This document shows, one piece after another, positions 10,936 to 34,688 of a DNA stretch of 64,000 bases. The stretch is from an uncultured bacterium (lineage in GTDB: Bacteria; Patescibacteriota; JABMPQ01; CAVVCK01), in the NCBI GenBank assembly GCA_963746775.1, contig CAVVCK010000002.1, forward strand, positions 431,656-495,655, given 5' to 3'. Position numbers and translations under genes: made by a program. The notes under the pieces were generated by a model, which had not been told where the DNA came from, ran no database searches, and saw only the letters and a program-made list of their open reading frames with translations. Numbering within the stretch: position 1 is the stretch's first letter; each line of letters opens with the position of its first letter.

Positions 10936-11370
10936 TTATTTCTTTAAGGCTTTATCTAAAACTAAATTTACCAGCCTGTCAGCTTCTTTATTTTTTTCTC
11001 TTCTTATATGTTTAAAAGTAACGGATTTAAAGCCCAAAGTCAAATTATGTATTTTGATAAAAAGCGGCTCTAAGTTCTTGTCTTTTACTCTATACTCTCT
11101 GTTCAGTTGTTTTACTACTAATTCACTATCTAAATAGCATAAAACCTCTATGGCTTTAAGCTTCTTTGCTCTTTCTAAACCTAAAATTAAAGCCCTGTAT
11201 TCTGCCTGATTATTTGTATTTATACCAATGTACTGTCCAATTTTAGCAATTATTTTTCTTTTAGAATTATAAACAACCGCCCCACAACCTGCTGGTCCTG
11301 GGTTACCTCTTGATCCTCCGTCTGAAAATATTATTAGTTTTTGGTTTTTCATAAATAAATACACTACCAA
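10936..11370 (-). CDS. RNase H (type 1, RNase HI family). True start is probably the MKNQK Met at 11352.
   Basis: IFSDGGSRGNPGPAGCGAVV...NNQAEYRALILGLE...DSELVVKQL. Confidence 0.8.
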   Translation of the reverse strand: MVVYLFMKNQKLIIFSDGGSRGNPGPAGCGAVVYNSKRKIIAKIGQYIGINTNNQAEYRALILGLERAKKLKAIEVLCYLDSELVVKQLNREYRVKDKNLEPLFIKIHNLTLGFKSVTFKHIRREKNKEADRLVNLVLDKALKK

Positions 11371-14488: not shown

Positions 14489-15100
14489 TTATTTTTCTTC
14501 TATAAAATATTTCTTTAAGTCTTTTCTACTCTTCATTTCAGGTAGACAATTATCTATGAAGTTTTTGTAAGTATAATTCTTATGTGGGAATTGGCTTAAA
14601 ACTATCTCTTTATTACATAAAGTCCCTGATCTTTGATTTACATAGTCTAGATAGTTAGACCAAGGATATTTATTGAGGTTATGGGTTATTTTGTGTAGTT
14701 TAGGATTTAGATTAATGTAGGCAGAGAGCCAGAGAAGATATTCGTTGGAGTTAATGCGGATGGATTTGAAGCGGTCCTGGAATAATATACCGGATTTATC
14801 ATGTTTTTTATTAAAATAAATGGTATAGCTCGTTCCTAACCTATACATAAATTCTGAAATAGCATTATCTGACGTTTGTTTTAATATGAAATGATAATGA
14901 CTAGGATTTAGGCAGTAGGCTATAAATTCTACTCCCAAAGACTCAGCCTTTTTCAGAAAGGCTGAGTCTTGAGATTTTAAGCTTCTTATGGTTTTAATAA
15001 AGCGAATATAATCTCTTGTTTCTAAAAAAATATTTCTTTTATCTACACCACGGTTGTAGATATGATAATACTCGTTATTAGAAAATATAGTCCTCCTCAT
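14489..15100 (-). CDS. IS200/Y1-transposase-like protein of the REP-associated tyrosine transposase (RAYT) type
   Basis: YHIYNRGVDKRNIF...AYCLNPSHYHFIL (HUH)...FQDRFKS...YINLNPKLHKI...YPWSNY. Confidence 0.75.
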   Translation of the reverse strand: MRRTIFSNNEYYHIYNRGVDKRNIFLETRDYIRFIKTIRSLKSQDSAFLKKAESLGVEFIAYCLNPSHYHFILKQTSDNAISEFMYRLGTSYTIYFNKKHDKSGILFQDRFKSIRINSNEYLLWLSAYINLNPKLHKITHNLNKYPWSNYLDYVNQRSGTLCNKEIVLSQFPHKNYTYKNFIDNCLPEMKSRKDLKKYFIEEK

Positions 15101-24764: not shown

Positions 24765-25019
24765 CTACATTCCTTCAATCTCTTTTATTTTAACATAAGG
24801 ACCGCTAATTTGGCTAATTTCTACTTTAGAACCGCTCAAAACTGTCCCTTTACTTAATAATTTAATATTAAATTTCAAATTAGAAGGTAGAATAGTTTCT
24901 CCATGCTCAGAAATTTTTCCCAAGCCAATTTTAATATTAGTAATTTTTTTTAAGCCATTTTTTCTGGCATACTCTTTTATATCCCGAACTATTTTGTCTG
25001 CTGCATGTAGGTCGTGCAT
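24765..25019 (-). CDS. HypA-like nickel metallochaperone lacking the zinc-ribbon domain (84 aa)
   Basis: Starts MHD (compare the MHE Ni site). The alignable HypA core runs up to EISQISG...VKIKEIE. No CxxC pairs anywhere. Confidence 0.6.
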   Translation of the reverse strand: MHDLHAADKIVRDIKEYARKNGLKKITNIKIGLGKISEHGETILPSNLKFNIKLLSKGTVLSGSKVEISQISGPYVKIKEIEGM

Positions 25020-25060
25020 AAAATCAATATAACATTAAAACAATATAATTAAATAACAAT

Positions 25061-25429
25061 TTATTTTTTATTATCTATACTTTTTCCTAAAGTTTTCAGT
25101 TCTGTCCAAAGCATAACACCTATTTCATCGGCTAATTTTAAAGCAATAATGTAATCTTCTTTTTTTATATAATTCTCATTTAAAGAGAAATAGAGAAGGT
25201 ACTTAGACTCTTTTAATGATCCATAAGATATTTCAAGAAAATTCAACTGGACAGCTCTTTTCCTTCTAGCAAAACCTTCAATATAATTAAGTATCACCGA
25301 GAGTAATGATCTTCTTATCTATGAAACAACTCCATATAATTCTGCCTTTGGATATCCCCTGGTTAATTTATACATTGAATGAACATATTCATCCATTTTT
25401 AATTTTAACTCATCTTGAAACTTAGGCAT
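25061..25429 (-). pseudogene. Four-helix-bundle protein gene (23S rRNA IVS / Avd-like family) interrupted by one in-frame TAG at 25319..25321
   Basis: Own translation: MPKFQDELKLKMDEYVHSMYKLTRGYPKAELYGVVS*IRRSLLSVILNYIEGFARRKRAVQLNFLEISYGSLKESKYLL... The track shows only the 78-aa distal part (GTG start). Confidence 0.75.
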
Positions 25430-25432
25430 TTG

Positions 25433-25464
25433 TTATTTTGTTCTTGTGTTATCTTGTTATTTTG
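25433..25464. repeat. 32-nt intergenic motif TTATTTTGTTCTTGTGTTATCTTGTTATTTTG (31/32 identical to 36195-36226)
   Basis: Direct comparison of the two sites. Confidence 0.8.
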
Positions 25465-25466
25465 GC

Positions 25467-26735
25467 TTAATGTACCGAACACGTAATACAAGGATCATAA
25501 GCTCTGATCATCATTTTTATTTTCCTTGTTCTTTCTTCTTCTGTCAAATTTAGAACTCTTGATAAATATTGTTCTAAATCTCTTTCCATATTAGATATTA
25601 GTTGCGCTGTTGGTGTAATAATATTTAGTTTAGTAATCTTTCCCTTGCTACTTATTCCATAGGCATGATAAAGCGTTCCCCGAGGCGCTTCTATCGCTCC
25701 TACTCCGTAGCCTTCTTTCACTTTATAATCTGTAGCTATATTTTTCAAATCTGATTTTAAAACTTTTTCTAATAATTTTATACTTTCTTCAATACTATCA
25801 ATAATTTCAATCATTTGCGCTAAAATATTGTAAAAAGAATTACAAGAAGGCAATATAATACCCGATTTTTTTAATAATTTTTGCGCTTCTCTGTTTAATT
25901 TTTCATGATTAATATTAAGCCGGGCCAGTGCCCCTACCATAATTTCTTTATCGTTTTTCTTAACCCTCTTAACTGCTTCATAGGGCAATTGAATTTCTTC
26001 TATATTATTTTCAAATTTATCTGGTGAAATATTTAATCCTTTCGTTGATACTACGCTACCATCATATATTGAATATTCCTTTTTATTGCTCAAAGCTACA
26101 TATTCCGTCTCCCGACTAAAGCCTGGATATTTTAATTTGCTAAAAAATTCTCCTAGAATTGCAGCTTCTTTTAATATCTGACCACTTTGTTTTAGTAATT
26201 TCTCTACTTTAGATCGATTTGGTGCTACTCTAAAACCTCCTATTTTGCCAGACACAGGATGTATTGATCTTCCACCAAAAACATGAATCAGCTCATTACC
26301 ATATTCTCTAATGGACAAAGCTAGCTTAGTATATTCTGGAAATTGTTTAATTAAAGTAGAAGCTTCTGAAATATCAAAGAAATCTGATAGAGATAAAAAA
26401 TAAATATGCAGTGTATGGCTTTGAATAAATTGGCCCAGCATTAAAATTTTACGCATTATAACTGCATCTTCGGGAATTTTAACGTCTAAAGCTGATTCAA
26501 CGGCTTTTAGCGCAGTTAAGTAGTGAACAACCGGACATACTCCGCAAATACGAGCTGAAATATTAGCTGCTTCTTCAAAATTCCTGCCTACCATTATTCT
26601 CTCAAAAAGCCTAATGCCCATTATTACTTCAAAGCGAGCTTTTTGAACATTACCATTAACAATATCACCAATAAATCCAGCATGGCCTTCAATTTTGTCT
26701 ATTTGATTAATTTTAATTGTTCTTTTATTACTCAT
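25467..26735 (-). CDS. [NiFe]-hydrogenase large subunit, group 3b-like (alpha)
   Basis: 422 aa. N-terminal RICGVCPVVH and C-terminal DPCITCSVH-stop. Confidence 0.9.
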   Translation of the reverse strand: MSNKRTIKINQIDKIEGHAGFIGDIVNGNVQKARFEVIMGIRLFERIMVGRNFEEAANISARICGVCPVVHYLTALKAVESALDVKIPEDAVIMRKILMLGQFIQSHTLHIYFLSLSDFFDISEASTLIKQFPEYTKLALSIREYGNELIHVFGGRSIHPVSGKIGGFRVAPNRSKVEKLLKQSGQILKEAAILGEFFSKLKYPGFSRETEYVALSNKKEYSIYDGSVVSTKGLNISPDKFENNIEEIQLPYEAVKRVKKNDKEIMVGALARLNINHEKLNREAQKLLKKSGIILPSCNSFYNILAQMIEIIDSIEESIKLLEKVLKSDLKNIATDYKVKEGYGVGAIEAPRGTLYHAYGISSKGKITKLNIITPTAQLISNMERDLEQYLSRVLNLTEEERTRKIKMMIRAYDPCITCSVH

Positions 26736-27478
26736 TGTTTTTTTAATTTTTCAATTTTTACTCCATAAACTTCCATCATTTCATAAATCTCTTTCTCACT
26801 CACCCTATCTTTCAATGCTTTAATTATATTTTCCCAGTTAGCCTCTTTCAAAAATCCTCTACAACCATAGCACTCTAACCCACCAGATAAACAAGCAGCA
26901 CCACATCCTCCAGCTGTAGCCGGTCCCAAGCATGGCTTTCCTTCTTGTAATAAGCATTTATAACCATTTATTTGGCACTCATAACAAACTGGCCTTTGGA
27001 TATTCTTAGGATTACGGCCAGCTAGCAGCATATATACTATTCTCAAGAAATCTTTATTATCAATAGGACAGCCCAGCACTTCATAATCAACTTTAACGAC
27101 TTCTTTAACTGATTCTACTTTATAATCTTCCACTTCCTTTGGTCTTTCGTAAACAAATTTAGGCTTCACTAATTTAGGATGATAATTTTTCATTTTCTGC
27201 ACTCCCCCATGAGTAGCGCAAGTACCCAGCGCTATTAAAATCTTACTTCGTCCGCGAATACTTTTTAAAAATTTAAATTGTTCATCTAATAATGGAGTAC
27301 CTTCTACAAAGACAATATCATAGTTGCCTTCCTCGGGTAGTTCTTCAATCAAATGAAATTCTGCCAAATCAATTCTTTTAGTTAATTCTAAAAATTTCTC
27401 ACCTAAATCTAGGATAGCAAATTCACATCCCTCACAGCATGTTAAGCTTACTATCCCTACTTTTGGTTTCTTAGTCAT
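26732..27478 (-). CDS. [NiFe]-hydrogenase small subunit, group 3b-like (delta)
   Basis: 248 aa. VSLTCCEGCEF, GTCATHGG, Cys-rich C-terminus. ATGA overlap with the large subunit. Confidence 0.85.
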   Translation of the reverse strand: MTKKPKVGIVSLTCCEGCEFAILDLGEKFLELTKRIDLAEFHLIEELPEEGNYDIVFVEGTPLLDEQFKFLKSIRGRSKILIALGTCATHGGVQKMKNYHPKLVKPKFVYERPKEVEDYKVESVKEVVKVDYEVLGCPIDNKDFLRIVYMLLAGRNPKNIQRPVCYECQINGYKCLLQEGKPCLGPATAGGCGAACLSGGLECYGCRGFLKEANWENIIKALKDRVSEKEIYEMMEVYGVKIEKLKKQ

Positions 27479-27510
27479 AAAAAGATAAAAATTTTAAAAC
27501 ATTAAAACAA

Positions 27511-27870
27511 TTATTTTGAATCTTTGATATTTTTTATTTCAGTCCAAAGCAGAGCACCTATTTCATCTGCTAATTCCATTCCCTTTTTATATTGATTTTC
27601 GTTAATAAATCCTTCCATTAAAGAAAAATGTAAAAGATATTTAGTTTCTTTCAATAATCCATACGACATCATTGAAAAATTTCTCTGATTACCCTTATTA
27701 AATCTTGCAAAACCTTCTATATAATTAAGTATTACTGACAATGAAACTCGTTTAAGTTAAGAAACTATACCGAATAATTCTTCTTTTGGAAAATTGTATG
27801 ATATCTTATAGCAATAATGAGCATATTGATCCATTTTCTTTTTCAATATTTCTCTATAATTCTCTTTCAT
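27511..27870 (-). pseudogene. Second four-helix-bundle protein gene interrupted by one in-frame TAA at 27757..27759
   Basis: Own translation: MKENYREILKKKMDQYAHYCYKISYNFPKEELFGIVS*LKRVSLSVILNYIEGFARFNKGNQRNF... The track shows only the 76-aa distal part (TTG start). Confidence 0.75.
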
Positions 27871-27905
27871 TAATTTTGTTCTCGTGCTCTAGTGTTTTAA
27901 TGTTT

Positions 27906-28652
27906 TTATAATCCTATATTCGCCAACCCTACACTATACCCATTCCACTTATTCAAATTCATCACTTGCAAATCACTCAACTTATCACAAGCCCAAAACC
28001 AGTGCATGGAGACAAAGTCTCCTATTTTTATATTTTCAATAAACTTCTTATTATTAAATTTAAAATATATATCTTTATTTTCTAAATTTCCAAAGATAAA
28101 CTGATTATCTTTAAATATTAAAGGCCTATATTTTATTTCTAATTTTCCAGATTTTATTTTTAAAACACGTGTAGGCAATATTAAACATTCATTAATAGTC
28201 TCCAAAGTATGCTCTACTGGATAATAACCTGTTCGCTTGGGAATATTCAGCACATGAAAGCTATGATGAGGCTTCGCTCCCATCGGAATCTTACCAATTA
28301 CCTTCTCTGCCATTTTCATTTTAAACTTTTTCTTCAAGTTCTGCTTATCAATCAAATAACTATAGAAATTATTCATAGAAACATTATTCAGAAGATCATT
28401 CCCTATCCAATAAGCTTCACTAACTTTAGAATTAAGTGGATCTGAAATATGACTAGCATCAGCAATTAATTTTAAATAAGGATACATAGTCTGAAATTCA
28501 GCTAAAATCTCTTCTAACCCTTTATCTTGCTGATTCTGAGATACATATTCAAAAAGATTGCTATTCTTATCACCTCCGCAATACTGCAGCTTATTAGGAC
28601 TAAAGGCATAACGAGCTGCAATCAACATTCCATTATACGATAGGTTTTCCAT
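27906..28652 (-). CDS. Hypothetical 248-aa protein with a C-terminal HypC/HupF-like domain
   Basis: Residues about 155-240, ECLILPTRVLKIKSGKLEIKY...IKIGDFVSMHWFWACDKLS, parallel the local HypC MCLTYPAKILKIKGEIALIQ...LKVGDYILHNANLAIKKV. Confidence 0.6.
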   Translation of the reverse strand: MENLSYNGMLIAARYAFSPNKLQYCGGDKNSNLFEYVSQNQQDKGLEEILAEFQTMYPYLKLIADASHISDPLNSKVSEAYWIGNDLLNNVSMNNFYSYLIDKQNLKKKFKMKMAEKVIGKIPMGAKPHHSFHVLNIPKRTGYYPVEHTLETINECLILPTRVLKIKSGKLEIKYRPLIFKDNQFIFGNLENKDIYFKFNNKKFIENIKIGDFVSMHWFWACDKLSDLQVMNLNKWNGYSVGLANIGL

Positions 28653-29553
28653 GTAATTGTTTTTGATCTTCTAGTTTCTCTCTAAATTTCCAAAACAAAA
28701 CTACTCCCACTAAAATTATTAACGCTCCCAATATTTTATCTAACGACAATTTATGAGTTACAAAAGTAGCGTTTAAAAATGTTGTAATTGGTGAAGCTAA
28801 TACTAAAACCGAAGCTGTCACCGTCACTGGCAATTTCTTCAAAGCACTATACCAAGTAATTACATACCCGCCTAAAAATAGTGAGACCAATAATATCCAA
28901 GCCATTTGATTAGAGCTTAAATCTAGCAAACCTCCCATATTCCCTGTAAATAATAAAAATAAAACTAAAATAATTGATCCAAAAAACATTCTGCCCCAAG
29001 CTAGGACCATCGAATCAATATTCTTTAGAGCAATTTTGGCAATAATATTTTCCGCAGCCCATAAAAGCGTGGCTATCAATATTAAAATTTCAGCGTACCC
29101 GAATTTCAGTCCAGAAAAGCCTTCAAAAATTACATTGCCTGTTAATAAAATTCCCAAAGCTATAAATTGCAATTTACTTAGCTTCTCTTTTAAAATCGGA
29201 AAGGCTAGGATAGCCACCCAAATAAATAAAGTTTTATGTATAAATGAGGCAGATACTGGAGAGGTAAGGCTTAAGCCTTGGAAAAACAATAAAAAAGGAA
29301 CGCTGCCACCTATTAAGCCTATTAAGCTTAATTTCAGCCAGTCTTTTTTACTTAATAATTTTAATTTCTTAAAAATAAAAGGAGTTAGAACTATTAATGT
29401 CAAAAATAGAGCAACTACTACATTTTTCAAGGTCGTATATTGAAAAGCATTTTTACCTAAAGCCTGCATGCCAAATTTATTAAAAAAATTGGCTAAGCCA
29501 GAGATGACGGCCGTTGCTAGGACTAAATAGAATCCTTTTTGAATATTGATCAT
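28633..29553 (-). CDS. EamA/DMT-superfamily transporter
   Basis: 306 aa, about 10 TM helices, two-repeat architecture. Confidence 0.7.
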   Translation of the reverse strand: MINIQKGFYLVLATAVISGLANFFNKFGMQALGKNAFQYTTLKNVVVALFLTLIVLTPFIFKKLKLLSKKDWLKLSLIGLIGGSVPFLLFFQGLSLTSPVSASFIHKTLFIWVAILAFPILKEKLSKLQFIALGILLTGNVIFEGFSGLKFGYAEILILIATLLWAAENIIAKIALKNIDSMVLAWGRMFFGSIILVLFLLFTGNMGGLLDLSSNQMAWILLVSLFLGGYVITWYSALKKLPVTVTASVLVLASPITTFLNATFVTHKLSLDKILGALIILVGVVLFWKFREKLEDQKQLHGKPIV

Positions 29554-29729: not shown

Positions 29730-29936
29730 TTATTTATTACTAAAAATATCCATAATTTCCTCAGCCTCTTTCCTGAAAACCTTTTTTATAGCCAAATTAG
29801 CATTATGTAAAATGTAATCTCCCACTTTAAGATTTTTTAACATACTAATATTAACTTCTAATTTATTCTTTTTATCTTGAATTAGAGCTATTTCTCCTTT
29901 AATTTTTAATATTTTAGCAGGATAGGTTAGACACAT
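29730..29936 (-). CDS. hypC: Hydrogenase maturation chaperone HypC
   Basis: 68 aa. MCLTYPAKI N-terminus and VGDYIL motif. Confidence 0.85.
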   Translation of the reverse strand: MCLTYPAKILKIKGEIALIQDKKNKLEVNISMLKNLKVGDYILHNANLAIKKVFRKEAEEIMDIFSNK

Positions 29937-29937
29937 T

Positions 29938-32232
29938 TTATTCTTCTTTTAGTTTATATAAGTAATATTCTCCTTCATGGGCTACTAGATCCATGTGTTT
30001 GTTTTTAAATTTTATCACCCTTTTGTAATTATCTAAAGTAAAATTAGCATATTCTTGTGAGCCATTTTCTTGTTTAGCCCACAATATTCTTTCCGAAATA
30101 TTTTCCGTATACCCTCTCCAAATAAAATATCTTATGTTAAAATTTTTTAATACTCGGATAACATGTTCCTCAGTATTATTTTTTAATAAATAACTAATAT
30201 ATAATAAATAATGATCTTGTATATAACGGTTATTAGAGTTATCTATATAATAACCCCTTGCTTGATCTAATCCCCAAATCATTTCTTTATTATCTAAATT
30301 ATTATTTAAATATTCTGACATTAAATACAATTTATCTCTCGATATACTCGGATCTGGTGAATATAGAGACATATAATTTATTCTTTTGTTAAATTGTAAA
30401 TTTCCAATTGTAATTATCCAGATCGATAAGAATGTATATAAAAATAATTTTAGGTATTTATTTCTTGTAAAAAATATTTGACTCAATAAAACAAAAAATA
30501 AAACATACAATGAAATAGCATACCAGATAACAACATGTCCTATATAAACCCAACCGAAATATAGAATAATAGTAGCAAACAATAGTAAAATAAATTCCCT
30601 TTTCAATTTCCTATAAAATATATTCTTTATATAATAAAATATTATAACTGGAGCAAAAAGAATAAATGTAAAACCTATGTTTAACGCATCAGAAATATAT
30701 TTTTTATTTCCTATATAAGTAATATCAAAAGGTATATTTAAAAAATAACTCAAATCCTTTTTTTGTTTATCATCCCATATCAAGTAAGCTTCATTTCTCA
30801 TCTCATTAACTATATATTTTTGTGAATCTCGACCTAAAGTATCATAAAAAGATTGTTTTGAAGCTAACTTCTCACTTAAAATTGGGTCAATCGGGTTACC
30901 GCTAAATTTAATATTTCTGACAAACCATGGCAACATAAAAATAAATATTATTAATCCCCAAATAAAAAAATATTTTACTTTTATTTTATTTCTAATTATT
31001 TGTACTAGAAAAAATATTACCAACGGAACAATATACCATGTTAGAAAAAAATATTTTAACCCGGCCGCGATACCACAGAAAACACTAAAAATAATTAAGT
31101 CTTTTATTTTTCTTTTTTTTAGATAGTTTATAAAAGAACAATAACTGATCAATGTATAAAAAACAAAAATCATTTCTATTTTATGGTCTTCTAAATTTTG
31201 AAAAAATATTACAGGCAATGTTAAATAGGCAATAATAGCATAAACGCCACCCTTTAATTTATTTTTTCTAAAGAAATAATAAATGCATAAAACAATTAAT
31301 AAAGTAAAAATAAAAATAAGCGCTAAAGTTATTTGGAAGTTAAAAAGTAAATATCCTAAAGTAAATAACATTTCTCCATTTTGAGGAAAACCATAATAAA
31401 TCCAATAAGGAAAATTTACTATCCCATGATTCTCAACGAAAATCTTAGGATAAGTTAAATAGGAAATGAAAGCATCAAAACCAGAAGGAAATTGCTGAAA
31501 TATACCCGAAATATCAATTCCTAAAATCACAGGAATAATTAAAAAAATACCTTTTCCAAATAAAGTTAATTTTTTGAGTTCATAAAAATTATTTTTATCT
31601 TTAAAATAAGTCCACAATTCTATAATTTCTTTATAAGTAACAAAGGTTACAATAATCATTAAAACATAAGCAATAATTCTATAATATAAACCAAACATTC
31701 CTAAAAAATACACAATAAACATTAAAGCACCAAATCCTAGAGCACAAGAAAATAAAAACTTTTCTAAAAAAAAGCTAGTTTTATATTTAAATATTTTTAA
31801 TGTTTTACAACCTAAAGAAAAAGATATTAAAAATATCCAGGAAACTAAAATAATAGTAATTATATCATTACCAATAACGCCTAAATTATAAGAAGATCTA
31901 GCATAAATCCAGATAATCCATAAAAATGTAAAAAAATATAAAGACAAAGGCAAATAATATACAGGTATTTTTAAATCATTTATCTTATTTTTAAGTCCTT
32001 TTCTGCTTATTGACATAAAGTCTTTAATTTTTTTGCTTGGCCAAAAAATAATTAAAACTATTTTAAACAAAGCTAAAATATTAGCTATAAGTAAAGCAAA
32101 AGTAACAAACAAAGCTACTGATGATATAAATGCTTCTCCATAGTTAGGAAAACTATAAAAATAATAAACTATTACAACAATTCCCCACATCAGGAATAAT
32201 CCTGCAAAAATTTTTGAATAATATTTTTTCAT
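29938..32232 (-). CDS. Large polytopic membrane protein (764 aa), possibly a GT-C-type glycosyltransferase
   Basis: More than 14 hydrophobic segments followed by a soluble C-terminal domain. The function call is by architecture only. Confidence 0.4.
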   Translation of the reverse strand: MKKYYSKIFAGLFLMWGIVVIVYYFYSFPNYGEAFISSVALFVTFALLIANILALFKIVLIIFWPSKKIKDFMSISRKGLKNKINDLKIPVYYLPLSLYFFTFLWIIWIYARSSYNLGVIGNDIITIILVSWIFLISFSLGCKTLKIFKYKTSFFLEKFLFSCALGFGALMFIVYFLGMFGLYYRIIAYVLMIIVTFVTYKEIIELWTYFKDKNNFYELKKLTLFGKGIFLIIPVILGIDISGIFQQFPSGFDAFISYLTYPKIFVENHGIVNFPYWIYYGFPQNGEMLFTLGYLLFNFQITLALIFIFTLLIVLCIYYFFRKNKLKGGVYAIIAYLTLPVIFFQNLEDHKIEMIFVFYTLISYCSFINYLKKRKIKDLIIFSVFCGIAAGLKYFFLTWYIVPLVIFFLVQIIRNKIKVKYFFIWGLIIFIFMLPWFVRNIKFSGNPIDPILSEKLASKQSFYDTLGRDSQKYIVNEMRNEAYLIWDDKQKKDLSYFLNIPFDITYIGNKKYISDALNIGFTFILFAPVIIFYYIKNIFYRKLKREFILLLFATIILYFGWVYIGHVVIWYAISLYVLFFVLLSQIFFTRNKYLKLFLYTFLSIWIITIGNLQFNKRINYMSLYSPDPSISRDKLYLMSEYLNNNLDNKEMIWGLDQARGYYIDNSNNRYIQDHYLLYISYLLKNNTEEHVIRVLKNFNIRYFIWRGYTENISERILWAKQENGSQEYANFTLDNYKRVIKFKNKHMDLVAHEGEYYLYKLKEE

Positions 32233-32299: not shown

Positions 32300-33124
32300 T
32301 TAAATCACCCCCTCAATCCCTCTCAACTGCTCCCAACTAAATACCGGCCCATCCTTACAGACATAATAAGGACCAACAGCACAATGTTCACATACCCCAA
32401 TACCACATTCCATACGACGCTCCAGGGATAAATAAATATTTTCATCTTGAAAACCTTTTTCTTTTAATTTATCTATGACAAATTTACACATAATGGGCGG
32501 CCCGCAAACTAAGGCTACACCAGAAGCATCTGTTTCTTGCTGATCAAATAAAGCTGTGATTAAACCTATATTACATTTTACTCCTGAAATATTTTCTTCC
32601 CTACCTTTATCCAAAGTAATACTTATTTCTATATTCTTGCACCAATCATCAATTTCATCTTTAAATATTAATTCCTCCTTATCCCTGGCTCCATAAAATA
32701 CCTGCATATTGCTAGATTTGGCGCTACAATAGGACTTAATTAGGGATCTAAAGGGAATAATGCCAATTCCACCAGCAACAATTAAAACTTTTTTATTATT
32801 AATTTTATCTATTGGCCAACCATTGCCATAAGGTCCTCTAATGCCAACTGTATCACCTACTTTCATAGTGTGCATTCTCTTAGTCAATTCTCCCACTTTA
32901 CGGATACAAATCTCTATATATTTTTTATCATAAATAGATCCACAATAAGCAAAAGGAGCTTCATTAAAACCAGGAATGGATAACTCTAAAATTTGCCCCG
33001 GACTAAACTGAAAATTTTTTCTATATTTTCTATTTTCAAATCTTAATTTATAGAGATTGATAGTATCGTTTTCCTTCTTTATACTTATTATTTTTGCTTT
33101 TTCTGTTTGGTATTGGTTTTGCAT
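32300..33124 (-). CDS. Hydrogenase gamma subunit (FAD/NAD(P)-binding, 2Fe-2S; HydG/AsrB-like)
   Basis: 274 aa. GGIGIIPF and the C-terminal CGIGVCEHCAVG cluster. Confidence 0.8.
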   Translation of the reverse strand: MQNQYQTEKAKIISIKKENDTINLYKLRFENRKYRKNFQFSPGQILELSIPGFNEAPFAYCGSIYDKKYIEICIRKVGELTKRMHTMKVGDTVGIRGPYGNGWPIDKINNKKVLIVAGGIGIIPFRSLIKSYCSAKSSNMQVFYGARDKEELIFKDEIDDWCKNIEISITLDKGREENISGVKCNIGLITALFDQQETDASGVALVCGPPIMCKFVIDKLKEKGFQDENIYLSLERRMECGIGVCEHCAVGPYYVCKDGPVFSWEQLRGIEGVI

Positions 33125-33710: not shown

Positions 33711-34688
33711 TTATTTATCCTCTAAAATCTCCTTCAAAACCTCGCTTATTTCAATCCCCACCGGACAAACTCTAGAACACCTCCCACAACCCACACAACC
33801 GGAAATACCAAATTTATCAGGAGTTCTGACAAATTTGTGGGTATACCAATAATATATTCTTTCCTCGGTAGAATTTAAAAATTTATGATTACCGGCCACT
33901 TCTGAAAATTCATGATAAAAACAAGCATCCCAACATCGAACTCTCTCACCTTCGTCTTCTTCTAAACTCGGCCTATCATCTATTCTAAAACAATAGCAAG
34001 TAGGACAAGCTAGGGTACATTTACCACATTCTATACATCTCTTACCCAGCTCTTCCCATACTTTCTTATTATATCCTTTTTTCATTTTCTCTCTAATTTT
34101 CAACATTATAGGATCTTGGCCTTCCTCTTTTATTGGTCCTGCAAACTGAATATGATTATAATTCCTATAACCAAATTCTTCTAGTATTCTCTGCCCTTTT
34201 TCTGATCCGGTGAATACTTCATACAAATCTCCATGCTTTTCTAAAAATATATCAAATCGAACATGCTCCAAAATATGTTCTTCAAAATTTTCTAAGAATA
34301 TTTTAAAAGATTTACTATCTTTATTATTTGAACTACCTTGACCAATAACTATAATATTTCTCCTTCTCGTTTGATAATTTAAATCTTTTTCAAAAACATG
34401 GTCATACAAATTTAGAGCTTTTAAATCAAAAATGGTCATACCCAAAGCTATGGTTGGTTTCAGATTAAGTTTACCCTCTTCCAAATTACTACCCTTATAT
34501 TTAAATAAAGTTTCACACGGGGGTAGAAATAATTTTTTAAAATTTTTTCTGGCAACGGCGCCATTTAAAACAATATCTTGATAATCTTTGACATAGCCTA
34601 AGTCAAGGCCATCAGGTGCAAGTGGGGCGTATATTTTATGGGTTTCTAATAAATATTTTATTAGCTCTTTTAATTTTGTTTTTGTCAT
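33711..34688 (-). CDS. Hydrogenase beta subunit (4Fe-4S; HydB/AsrA-like)
   Basis: 325 aa. CIECGKCTLACPTCYC and CVGCGRCSRVCP. Confidence 0.8.
   Translation of the reverse strand: MTKTKLKELIKYLLETHKIYAPLAPDGLDLGYVKDYQDIVLNGAVARKNFKKLFLPPCETLFKYKGSNLEEGKLNLKPTIALGMTIFDLKALNLYDHVFEKDLNYQTRRRNIIVIGQGSSNNKDSKSFKIFLENFEEHILEHVRFDIFLEKHGDLYEVFTGSEKGQRILEEFGYRNYNHIQFAGPIKEEGQDPIMLKIREKMKKGYNKKVWEELGKRCIECGKCTLACPTCYCFRIDDRPSLEEDEGERVRCWDACFYHEFSEVAGNHKFLNSTEERIYYWYTHKFVRTPDKFGISGCVGCGRCSRVCPVGIEISEVLKEILEDK

What the first reader, a model, noticed from the sequence alone, without database searches (positions are those of the whole stretch)
27906..28652. 248-aa protein in the hydrogenase locus carries an internal HypC/HupF-like OB-fold domain behind an unknown ~155-aa N-domain
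The C-terminal part, ECLILPTRVLKIKSGKLEIKY...IKIGDFVSMHWFWACDKLSDLQV, parallels the bona fide HypC encoded 1 kb away (MCLTYPAKILKIKGEIALIQ...LKVGDYILHNANLAIKKV). The similarity includes the CL..P..(I/V)LKIK start and the (V/I)GD(Y/F) motif.

In HypC the Cys must be N-terminal (Cys2) to hold the Fe(CN)2CO group. Here it is internal. The protein would therefore need processing, or it would act as a HypC-like scaffold or competitor. I do not recognise the N-domain.
Basis: inference. Interest (0 to 1): 0.55.

Follow-up and report, generated by a model that had tools for sequence, protein, structure and literature searches.

The report
HypC-like metal module in hydrogenase operon
A 248-residue protein of unknown function in a hydrogenase gene cluster really does contain a buried copy of the HypC chaperone fold. 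Its gene neighbours and fusion partners suggest it binds or senses a metal, probably nickel, rather than acting as a second HypC.

Summary

C25, H130, H133, C156, H217, W218 and C222 are invariant in 81 sequences from several phyla.

The gene sits in [NiFe]-hydrogenase or hyp clusters in 70 of 80 related loci. It lies beside a transporter gene in 68 of 80: EamA, which overlaps it here and is fused to it elsewhere, Nik-like ABC genes, or CbiM. Homologues are fused to XRE, PadR or GntR DNA-binding domains at the head of such transporter operons.

The best reading is a Cys/His metal-binding sensor or hand-off module, probably for nickel, that links import to hydrogenase maturation. A role as Fe(CN)2CO carrier remains possible. 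Processing to expose the Cys is unlikely. No HypD, HypE or HypF gene lies near any locus, but whole genomes could not be checked.

The parts
27906..28652 (-). DUF6390 gene (248 aa plus stop codon), the subject of the finding
   Evidence: ORF. PF19927 E 1.5e-50, 172 bits, profile positions 4-235 of 244. 384 homologues, all PF19927.
28188..28652 (-). N-terminal all-helical domain (residues 1-155) with no recognised fold. It holds invariant C25 (28578-28580) and the H129-H130-x-x-H133 motif (28254-28268).
27909..28187 (-). HypC-like OB-fold domain with C-terminal helix (residues 156-248). C156 (28185-28187) is the equivalent of HypC Cys2 and H217 of HypC His51. The invariant H217-W218-x-x-x-C222 motif lies at 27987-28004. 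An ~18-residue beta-hairpin insert is present relative to HypC.
28633..29553 (-). EamA/DMT 10-TM transporter gene. Its 3' end overlaps the DUF6390 start by 20 nt, and it is the conserved partner of DUF6390.
   Evidence: PF00892 E 1.1e-32. A homologue lies immediately upstream on the same strand in 59 of 80 loci. It forms a single ORF with DUF6390 in L039/P0121 and L050.
29730..29936 (-). Stand-alone HypC (68 aa, starts MC). The canonical His position is Asn, with a His one residue earlier.
   Evidence: PF01455 E 1.4e-16. HypC is found upstream of EamA-DUF6390, or directly upstream of DUF6390, in 37 or more of 80 loci. His statistics.
26732..27478 (-). Hydrogenase small (delta) subunit
   Evidence: PF01058 E 4.5e-22
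25467..26735 (-). [NiFe]-hydrogenase large subunit. It has the RICGVC and DPCITCSVH motifs and ends at the His, with no C-terminal extension.
   Evidence: PF00374 E 2e-39. Sequence.
32300..33124 (-). Hydrogenase gamma subunit (FAD/NAD-binding, 2Fe-2S)
   Evidence: PF00175, PF10418 and PF00970
33711..34688 (-). Hydrogenase beta subunit (4Fe-4S dicluster)
   Evidence: PF17179 E 3.8e-32
24765..25019 (-). Minimal HypA (84 aa, no cysteine and hence no zinc site, starts MHD)
   Evidence: PF01155 E 1.8e-8, matching profile positions 1-68 of 112 only. Sequence. The same 84-aa form occurs in L081 and L082.

Best explanation
The protein is a two-domain cytoplasmic metal-binding module. A HypC-derived OB-fold domain keeps the two iron-ligating positions of HypC (C156 for Cys2, H217 for His51) and adds C222. 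It packs against a novel helical domain that supplies C25 and the H129/H130/H133 cluster.

Inference: together these form one Cys/His metal site, and the N-domain occupies the position where HypD would dock on a true HypC. That would explain why the Cys no longer needs to be N-terminal.

The module binds or senses a metal needed for [NiFe]-hydrogenase, most likely nickel. In this window it is a stand-alone protein that is translationally coupled to an EamA/DMT transporter inside a four-subunit (HydBGDA) hydrogenase operon. I infer that it takes up or reports the transported metal or metal complex at the membrane and feeds the nickel-insertion step (minimal HypA, large subunit). It may also gate the transporter. 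In other lineages the same module is fused to DNA-binding domains and would act as a metal-responsive regulator of Nik-like uptake operons.

What is shown:
- the homology and fold;
- the invariant residues;
- the gene neighbourhoods;
- the domain fusions.

What is inferred:
- metal binding itself;
- the identity of the metal;
- the direction of transfer.
For: - Fold and homology to HypC, with the Cys and His positions in register.
- C25, H130, H133, C156, H217, W218 and C222 are invariant in 81 of 81 sequences from Patescibacteria, Chloroflexota, Bacillota, Desulfatiglandales and Armatimonadota. H129 is present in 78 of 81.
- The full-length model is confident as a single unit (pTM 0.89). The N-domain modelled alone drops to pLDDT 68 and loses the C25 loop and the loop before the His cluster.
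- A hydrogenase or hyp gene lies within 10 kb in 70 of 80 loci. An adjacent transporter gene is present in 68 of 80, and both in 62 of 80.
- EamA is immediately upstream in 59 of 80 loci and fused to DUF6390 in L039/P0121 and L050.
- A Nik-like SBP_bac_5 gene with permeases lies directly downstream in 10 non-CPR loci. The best NCBIfam matches are nickel NikA (E 5.5e-44 and 4.1e-38) and the 'nickel ABC transporter permease', all below the curated cut-offs.
- CbiM/NikM-type genes occur in 6 CPR loci.
- Three unrelated DNA-binding families are fused N-terminally to intact DUF6390 modules: XRE in P0139 (P0128, truncated, also carries an HTH_3 domain), PadR in P0166 and GntR in P0223. The three intact fusions keep the invariant residues, except that P0139 has Phe at H133. 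Each is the first gene of an ABC-transporter operon near hydrogenase or hypC genes. The PadR fusion is seen on many independent contigs.
- Precedent: the EamA/DMT protein CntI moves a Ni/Zn metallophore (PMC5719457).
Against:
- The Nik assignments are below the curated cut-offs, and the same superfamily carries peptides.
- The GntR-fused homologue precedes a PhnS/Fbp-type transporter, not a Nik-type one.
- Some CPR loci already carry CbiM, so EamA need not import nickel.
- HypC itself binds iron, and DUF6390 usually follows hypC, the place where hypD sits in classical operons. That would fit an iron or cofactor role equally well.
- About 12 loci show no adjacent transporter.
Confidence: 0.45

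Rival explanations
1. Iron or Fe(CN)2CO scaffold. The protein is an intramolecular mimic of the HypC-HypD complex. C156 (HypC Cys2 position) and C25 (playing HypD Cys41) hold the iron or the Fe(CN)2CO group. The protein then acts as an intermediate carrier, like HupK/HoxV with HupF/HoxL, passing the group to the neighbouring HypC or to the large subunit. In the extreme version it replaces HypD in reduced genomes.
For: - The HypC fold is conserved with both Fe-ligating positions. The roles of C2, H51 and HypD C41 are described in PMC12134894.
- The gene follows hypC directly in non-CPR loci, where hypD normally sits.
- tblastn with E. coli HypD, HypE and HypF finds nothing in the 64-kb window or within 10 kb in any of 82 loci.
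- Many neighbouring stand-alone HypCs lack the canonical His, which is present in only 12 of 39, while DUF6390 always has it.
Against: - Fusion to three kinds of transcription-factor DNA-binding domain and to a membrane transporter is not expected of a cofactor assembly scaffold.
- There is no [4Fe-4S] motif, no Rossmann fold and no similarity to HypD.
- HypD, HypE and HypF may simply be encoded elsewhere in these genomes, which was not testable here.
Confidence: 0.2
2. Redox or Fe-S sensor. The three Cys and three to four His residues ligate an Fe-S cluster or form a thiol switch that reports O2 or redox state, and so control hydrogenase-related transport and expression.
For: - The invariant Cys3/His3-4 set.
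- The HTH fusions are typical of one-component sensors.
- Hydrogenase maturation is O2-sensitive (PMC12134894).
Against: - There is no canonical cluster-binding spacing.
- The transporter operons under the fused regulators look like metal or solute uptake systems, not redox functions.
- Nothing in the context is specific to oxygen.
Confidence: 0.1
3. Metal-free chaperone or competitor. The HypC-like domain docks on the apo large subunit, as HypC does through Cys2, to hold it open or to block premature assembly.
For: - HypC fold and operon membership.
- HypC C2 is needed to bind the apo large subunit (PMC12134894).
Against: - It does not explain the invariant N-domain Cys and His residues, the transporter coupling and fusion, or the HTH fusions.
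- The family serves both four-subunit cytoplasmic (3b-like) and group-1-like hydrogenases, whereas HypC paralogues are usually isoenzyme-specific.
Confidence: 0.1
4. Pro-protein. The N-domain is cleaved off at the ...E|C site to release a true HypC with an N-terminal Cys.
For: Only the requirement of HypC for an N-terminal Cys and the position of C156 at the domain boundary.
Against: - The residue before the Cys is variable (S, E, N, A, L, Q), so there is no conserved cleavage motif.
- The N-domain is as conserved as the C-domain, has its own invariant Cys and His residues, and is predicted to pack on the C-domain.
- No intact gene encodes the C-domain or the N-domain alone. The short hits are fragments or frameshifts.
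- A normal HypC is already encoded next door.
Confidence: 0.03

Closest known systems
HypC/HybG/HupF/HoxL family (PF01455, TIGR00074), the Fe(CN)2CO-carrying chaperones of [NiFe]-hydrogenase maturation
   Same: - Profile-profile homology (96%).
- A Cys at the start of strand 1 and a His in the GDxVxxH motif, in register.
- Encoded in hydrogenase and hyp gene clusters.
   Different: - The Cys is internal (position 156), not residue 2.
- A 155-residue conserved helical domain precedes it.
- There is an extra invariant Trp218 and Cys222, and an ~18-residue hairpin insert.
- It is not detected by the Pfam or TIGRFAM HypC models.
- It is fused in relatives to transporters and DNA-binding domains, which is unknown for HypC as far as I know (from my own knowledge, not tested here).
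Pfam DUF6390 (PF19927)
   Same: Full-length member (172 bits against a cut-off of 25).
   Different: Nothing differs. The family is catalogued but has no described fold, function or literature.
NikR and other nickel-responsive one-component regulators (from my own knowledge)
   Same: In the HTH-fused relatives, a metal-site-bearing sensor domain is joined to a DNA-binding domain at the head of a Nik-like uptake operon near hydrogenase genes.
   Different: - The sensor fold is unrelated (HypC-like OB plus a novel helical domain, against the ACT-like domain of NikR).
- The protein in this window has no DNA-binding domain.
- Nickel binding is untested.
CooT, a small Ni-binding beta-barrel protein of CO-dehydrogenase maturation with an essential Cys2 (from my own knowledge)
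   Same: A small beta-barrel that uses a Cys at the start of the barrel for metal binding, within a Ni-enzyme maturation cluster.
   Different: - In CooT the Cys is N-terminal.
- CooT has no helical partner domain.
HupK/HoxV with HupF/HoxL, the intermediate Fe(CN)2CO scaffold of O2-tolerant hydrogenases (PMC12134894)
   Same: An extra HypC-type element encoded beside the normal HypC in a hydrogenase cluster.
   Different: - HupK/HoxV resembles the large subunit; the DUF6390 N-domain does not.
- DUF6390 occurs in anaerobic fermenters.
- The transporter and regulator fusions have no counterpart.
CntI, the EamA/DMT exporter of the Ni/Zn metallophore pseudopaline (PMC5719457)
   Same: An EamA-type transporter dedicated to metal trafficking. 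It is a precedent for the EamA partner gene.
   Different: - No metallophore biosynthesis genes are seen here.
- The direction and substrate of the EamA partner are unknown.
- The best NCBIfam match of the EamA partner is a weak one to 'carboxylate/amino acid/amine transporter'.

Membership tests
HypC/HupF (PF01455 / TIGR00074) | Cys at position 2, exposed as the N-terminus after Met removal | tested here: not met
   The conserved Cys is residue 156 of 248, preceded by a conserved domain.
HypC/HupF (PF01455 / TIGR00074) | OB-fold beta-barrel followed by a C-terminal helix | tested here: met
   [not shown]
HypC/HupF (PF01455 / TIGR00074) | Conserved His (E. coli H51) in the GD(W/Y)V(L/I)VH motif | tested here: met
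   H217 in GDFVSMH aligns with that position. It is invariant in 81 of 81 sequences.
HypC/HupF (PF01455 / TIGR00074) | Scores above the curated threshold of the family models | tested here: not met
   No PF01455 or TIGR00074 hit at E<=1. The relation is seen only by profile-profile comparison and by fold.
HypC/HupF (PF01455 / TIGR00074) | [quoted passage not shown] | not testable with these tools
   Needs biochemistry or complex prediction.
DUF6390 (PF19927) | Full-length match above the gathering score | tested here: met
   172.4 bits against 25; residues 7-242 on profile positions 4-235 of 244.
HypD | CGxHxH motif, Rossmann-like domains and a C-terminal [4Fe-4S] Cys motif | tested here: not met
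   [not shown]
One-component metal-responsive transcription regulators | DNA-binding domain joined to the sensor domain | tested here: not met
   The window protein has no HTH. Relatives P0139, P0166 and P0223 do: XRE, PadR and GntR.
One-component metal-responsive transcription regulators | Specific metal binding that changes activity | not testable with these tools
   Only invariant Cys and His residues and Nik-like neighbours are available.
Group 3b [NiFe]-hydrogenase operon accessory gene | Conserved position inside the hydrogenase structural gene cluster | tested here: met
   The common CPR order (e.g. L004, L014) is HydB-HydG-HypC-EamA-DUF6390-HydD-HydA-HypA. The window subunits are confirmed. 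The family is also found with group-1-like enzymes.

The most novel reading that the evidence does not exclude
DUF6390, together with its EamA partner, is the core of a reduced route for building or acquiring the hydrogenase metal centre that does not depend on HypD, HypE or HypF. On this reading the N-domain Cys25 and His cluster do the job of HypD Cys41 on an intramolecular HypC-like domain, in ultra-small CPR genomes that keep only HypC, a 84-residue Cys-free HypA and this protein beside the structural genes.
Probability: 0.1. Interest if true: 0.9.

Novelty: new variant of a known kind. Interest (0 to 1): 0.62.

Why it matters
[NiFe]-hydrogenase maturation is thought to rest on six Hyp proteins, and HypC is thought to need its N-terminal cysteine. 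This family shows the HypC fold reused with an internal cysteine, welded to a new Cys/His-bearing domain, and wired to transporters and transcription factors.

The family is widespread. There are about 900 clusters at 50% identity, and more than 580 of the 599 candidate stretches kept from a scan of one genome per species (185,579 species) encode a relative.

If the module binds nickel, three things follow:
- It is a new class of nickel sensor or chaperone.
- It gives the first function for DUF6390.
- It explains how minimal CPR hydrogenase operons, which have a truncated HypA and no HypB nearby, obtain their nickel.

If it binds iron, it bears on how the Fe(CN)2CO site is built in reduced genomes. 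Either way it is a concrete, clonable candidate for an unrecognised hydrogenase accessory factor.

Tried and rejected
- **Direct HypC detection.** Pfam and NCBIfam hmmscan of the whole protein gave no HypC hit. Profile-profile comparison and fold search were needed.
- **APP E2 hit.** The best PDB sequence hit of the family profile was the amyloid precursor E2 domain (E 0.054, over the PHHxF segment). I treat this as chance.
- **Literature.** Searches for DUF6390 and PF19927 found nothing. Searches on hydrogenase maturation in CPR found nothing relevant.
- **HypD, HypE and HypF.** tblastn found none in the window or in 82 loci, but whole genomes could not be fetched, so absence from the genomes is not established.
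- **Apparent HypC-DUF6390 fusion (P0193) and second EamA fusion (P0225).** Both were rejected as frameshifted high-GC gene calls.
- **Short 'N-domain only' proteins.** These are fragments or frameshifts (P0149 lies on a 992-nt contig).
- **Origin of the window.** Look-ups of the window protein's own contig and of P0156 found nothing on record.
- **Processing at the E|C site.** Rejected as unlikely because there is no conserved residue before the Cys and the N-domain is conserved.

Full report
**1. What is in the sequence**

Its start overlaps by 20 nt the end of an upstream EamA/DMT transporter gene (28633..29553). A stand-alone HypC (29730..29936; PF01455, E 1.4e-16) lies 1078 nt upstream.

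The surrounding genes, all on the minus strand, form a four-subunit [NiFe]-hydrogenase operon. This HydBGDA architecture is that of group 3b as I know it; I ran no hydrogenase classifier.
- beta subunit, 33711..34688 (Fer4_22)
- gamma subunit, 32300..33124 (FAD/NAD-binding plus DHODB_Fe-S)
- delta subunit, 26732..27478 (Oxidored_q6)
- alpha subunit, 25467..26735 (NiFeSe_Hases)
- an 84-residue HypA, 24765..25019

The operon is embedded among glycolysis and fermentation genes. The window has 31.4% G+C. The closest named homologues of the protein come from Patescibacteria.

**2. Is the HypC resemblance real?**

The protein is a full-length member of Pfam DUF6390 (PF19927; 172 bits against a cut-off of 25). 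Hmmscan finds no HupF_HypC hit, even at E<=1. BLASTP against the neighbouring HypC aligns only CLILPTRVLKIK with CLTYPAKILKIK (E 0.004 for that single comparison).

Three stronger tests agree that the resemblance is real:
- **Profile against the PDB.** A profile of 59 family members picks three HypC sequences (six PDB entries) among its five best hits. The alignment covers the GDWVxxH...helix segment in register, at E 0.14-0.87.
- **Profile-profile comparison.** hhalign of family residues 150-248 against 39 HypCs encoded next to family members gives probability 96.1% and E 3.1e-9. It covers HypC residues 2-64 of 68, with C156 on Cys2 and H217 on the canonical His position. The N-terminal half, used as a control, gives 0.2%.

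Relative to HypC the domain carries an ~18-residue hairpin insert.

**3. The N-domain and the conserved residues**

Modelled alone, the N-domain drops to pLDDT 68, and the loops around C25 and before the His cluster fall below 50. This suggests, but does not prove, that those loops lean on the HypC-like domain.

I compared 81 sequences: the window protein plus 80 loci from Patescibacteria, Chloroflexota, Bacillota, Desulfatiglandales and Armatimonadota. C25, H130, H133, C156, H217, W218 and C222 are invariant, and H129 is present in 78. Three Cys and three to four His residues kept across phyla is the signature of a metal or cluster site. I could not measure their distances because model coordinates are not returned.

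**4. Genomic context**

A search of 1.84 billion cluster representatives with the N-domain profile found 921 hits at E<=1e-3.

- A [NiFe] large subunit lies within 10 kb in 57 of 80 loci.
- Some hydrogenase or hyp gene is present in 70 of 80.
- The common CPR order (e.g. L004, L014; other loci carry inserts or an inverted structural pair) is HydB-HydG-HypC-EamA-DUF6390-HydD-HydA-HypA. In six CPR loci, among them L081 (L082 shows the same order but stops short of that gene), a CbiM/NikM-type gene also lies between HydG and HypC.
- An EamA homologue sits immediately upstream on the same strand in 59 of 80 loci. In L039 (protein P0121, 563 aa) and L050 the two genes are one ORF.
- In Chloroflexota and other non-CPR loci the enzyme is group-1-like, with a small subunit carrying NiFe_hyd_SSU_C. 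There the order is HycI-HypA-HypC-DUF6390, followed at once by an SBP_bac_5 gene and two permease genes. This arrangement occurs in 10 loci.
- The best NCBIfam matches of those transporter genes are nickel NikA (E 5.5e-44 and 4.1e-38) and 'nickel ABC transporter permease'. All are below the curated cut-offs, so this is only a lean towards nickel.
- Overall, 68 of 80 loci have an adjacent transporter gene, and 62 of 80 have both a transporter and hydrogenase or hyp genes.
- E. coli HypD, HypE and HypF find nothing in the 64-kb window or in any of 82 loci. HypB appears in only four non-CPR loci.

**5. Domain fusions change the interpretation**

Among the longer hits of the representative search are intact DUF6390 modules preceded by DNA-binding domains of three unrelated families: XRE/HTH_3 (P0139; P0128, truncated, also carries HTH_3), PadR (P0166) and GntR (P0223). 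The three intact fusions keep C25, H130, C156, H217, W218 and C222.

Each fused gene heads a transporter operon:
- PadR-DUF6390 is followed by a 394-aa unknown protein, SBP_bac_5 and two permeases.
- XRE-DUF6390 sits between hypC and an SBP_bac_5/permease/ATPase set, with HycI and a large subunit nearby.
- GntR-DUF6390 overlaps the start of an SBP_bac_1/double-permease/ATPase operon, 8 kb from a hydrogenase small subunit.

The PadR fusion is seen on many contigs from different samples, so it is not an assembly artefact.

Two other apparent fusions, HypC-DUF6390 (P0193) and a second EamA fusion (P0225), are frameshifted calls and were discarded. Short 'N-only' hits are fragments.

Repeated, independent fusion to different DNA-binding domains is how ligand-sensing domains of one-component regulators typically appear. 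Fusion to the cytoplasmic end of a transporter is how metal-binding regulatory or hand-off domains typically appear. Both statements are general knowledge, not tested here.

**6. Best explanation**

DUF6390 is most likely a Cys/His metal-binding module made from a HypC-derived OB domain and a novel helical domain. It senses or hands on a metal needed by [NiFe]-hydrogenase, most likely nickel.

In this window it works as a stand-alone partner of the EamA transporter inside the hydrogenase operon. Elsewhere the same module is the sensor of regulators of Nik-like uptake operons.

The N-domain probably covers the face where HypD docks on a true HypC and contributes ligands. That would explain why the Cys can be internal. 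HypC C2, H51 and HypD C41 are the proposed iron ligands (PMC12134894). An EamA/DMT protein that moves a Ni/Zn metallophore is known (CntI; PMC5719457).

I put this explanation at about 0.45, and nickel specifically somewhat lower.

**7. Rivals**

- **Iron or Fe(CN)2CO scaffold (0.2).** An intramolecular HypC-HypD mimic. It is supported by the conserved Fe-ligand positions, by the gene's place after hypC, by the absence of HypD, HypE and HypF nearby, and by the fact that only 12 of 39 neighbouring HypCs keep the canonical His. The HTH and transporter fusions fit it poorly.
- **Redox or Fe-S sensor (0.1).**
- **Metal-free chaperone or competitor of HypC on the large subunit (0.1).** It leaves the N-domain ligands and the fusions unexplained.
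- **Pro-protein cleaved before C156 (0.03).** There is no conserved residue before the Cys, the N-domain is conserved and packed, and no split genes exist.

**8. Comparison with known families**

The protein works with a HypC fold but is not a HypC. It fails the N-terminal-Cys criterion and the family-model criterion, while meeting the fold and His criteria. It is a member of DUF6390, which is catalogued without fold, function or literature. One JGI record already calls a homologue 'hydrogenase maturation factor'.

I therefore rate it a new variant of a known kind. Interest is moderate to high for hydrogenase-maturation and metal-homeostasis specialists, because it offers a testable candidate for an unrecognised accessory factor or nickel sensor that is widespread in CPR bacteria and Chloroflexota.

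**9. Limits**

- No coordinates were available, so the clustering of the invariant residues is not shown.
- No whole genomes were available, so the absence of HypD, HypE and HypF is not established.
- There is no experimental evidence for any metal.
- The Nik assignments are below the curated thresholds.

Noticed in passing
window 25014-25475 and 27482-27920: Two ~440-460-nt cassettes lie 2438 nt apart. Each carries a short ORF of the 23S_rRNA_IVP / four-helix-bundle family (25061..25297 and 27511..27741, minus strand), matching only profile positions ~41-104 of 106. Each is bounded by imperfect inverted repeats and shares direct repeats with the other. They sit in the HypA|HydA and HydD|DUF6390 spacers and are absent from all 80 related loci. 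They look like a duplicated small insertion. The right arm of the second cassette overlaps the stop-codon end of the DUF6390 gene.
   Followed up: partly
window 29938-32232 (-): A 764-aa multi-pass membrane protein with a PMT_2 (dolichyl-phosphate-mannose glycosyltransferase-like) domain is inserted between HydG and HypC inside the hydrogenase operon. No homologue is found in the 80 related loci.
   Followed up: partly
window 24765-25019 (-); also L081 14195-14449 and L082 5786-6040: HypA is only 84 residues and has no cysteine at all, so it has no zinc site. It starts MHD instead of the usual MHE and matches only the first 68 of 112 profile positions. The same minimal form recurs in another CPR genome.
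   Followed up: partly
window 25467-26735 (-): The large subunit ends exactly at the His of DPCITCSVH, so there is no C-terminal extension for an endopeptidase to remove. Yet 20 related loci encode a small, divergent HycI-like protein directly after DUF6390 (e.g. L049 10726-11112; PF01750 24 bits; hhalign 86% to HycI).
   Followed up: partly
HypC genes next to DUF6390 in L001-L074 and window 29730-29936: Only 12 of 39 stand-alone HypCs beside DUF6390 keep His at the canonical H51 position; the others have N (13), Q (6), Y (5) and two singletons. The window copy has Asn there and a His one residue earlier. DUF6390 always has the His.
   Followed up: partly
L088 2466-3650; L058 6948-8138; L065 10741-11916; L076 7697-8605: A conserved ~394-aa protein with no Pfam or NCBIfam family lies between DUF6390 (stand-alone or PadR-fused) and the Nik-like SBP_bac_5 gene in several non-CPR loci.
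   Followed up: partly
window 14489-15100 (-) and 10936-11370 (-): An IS200-like Y1 transposase ORF (PF01797) and an RNase H / RVT_3 ORF lie in the flanking region.
   Followed up: no
L081 10783-11271 and L082 2374-2862: In one CPR lineage a Flavin_Reduct (PF01613) gene is inserted between DUF6390 and the hydrogenase small subunit.
   Followed up: no
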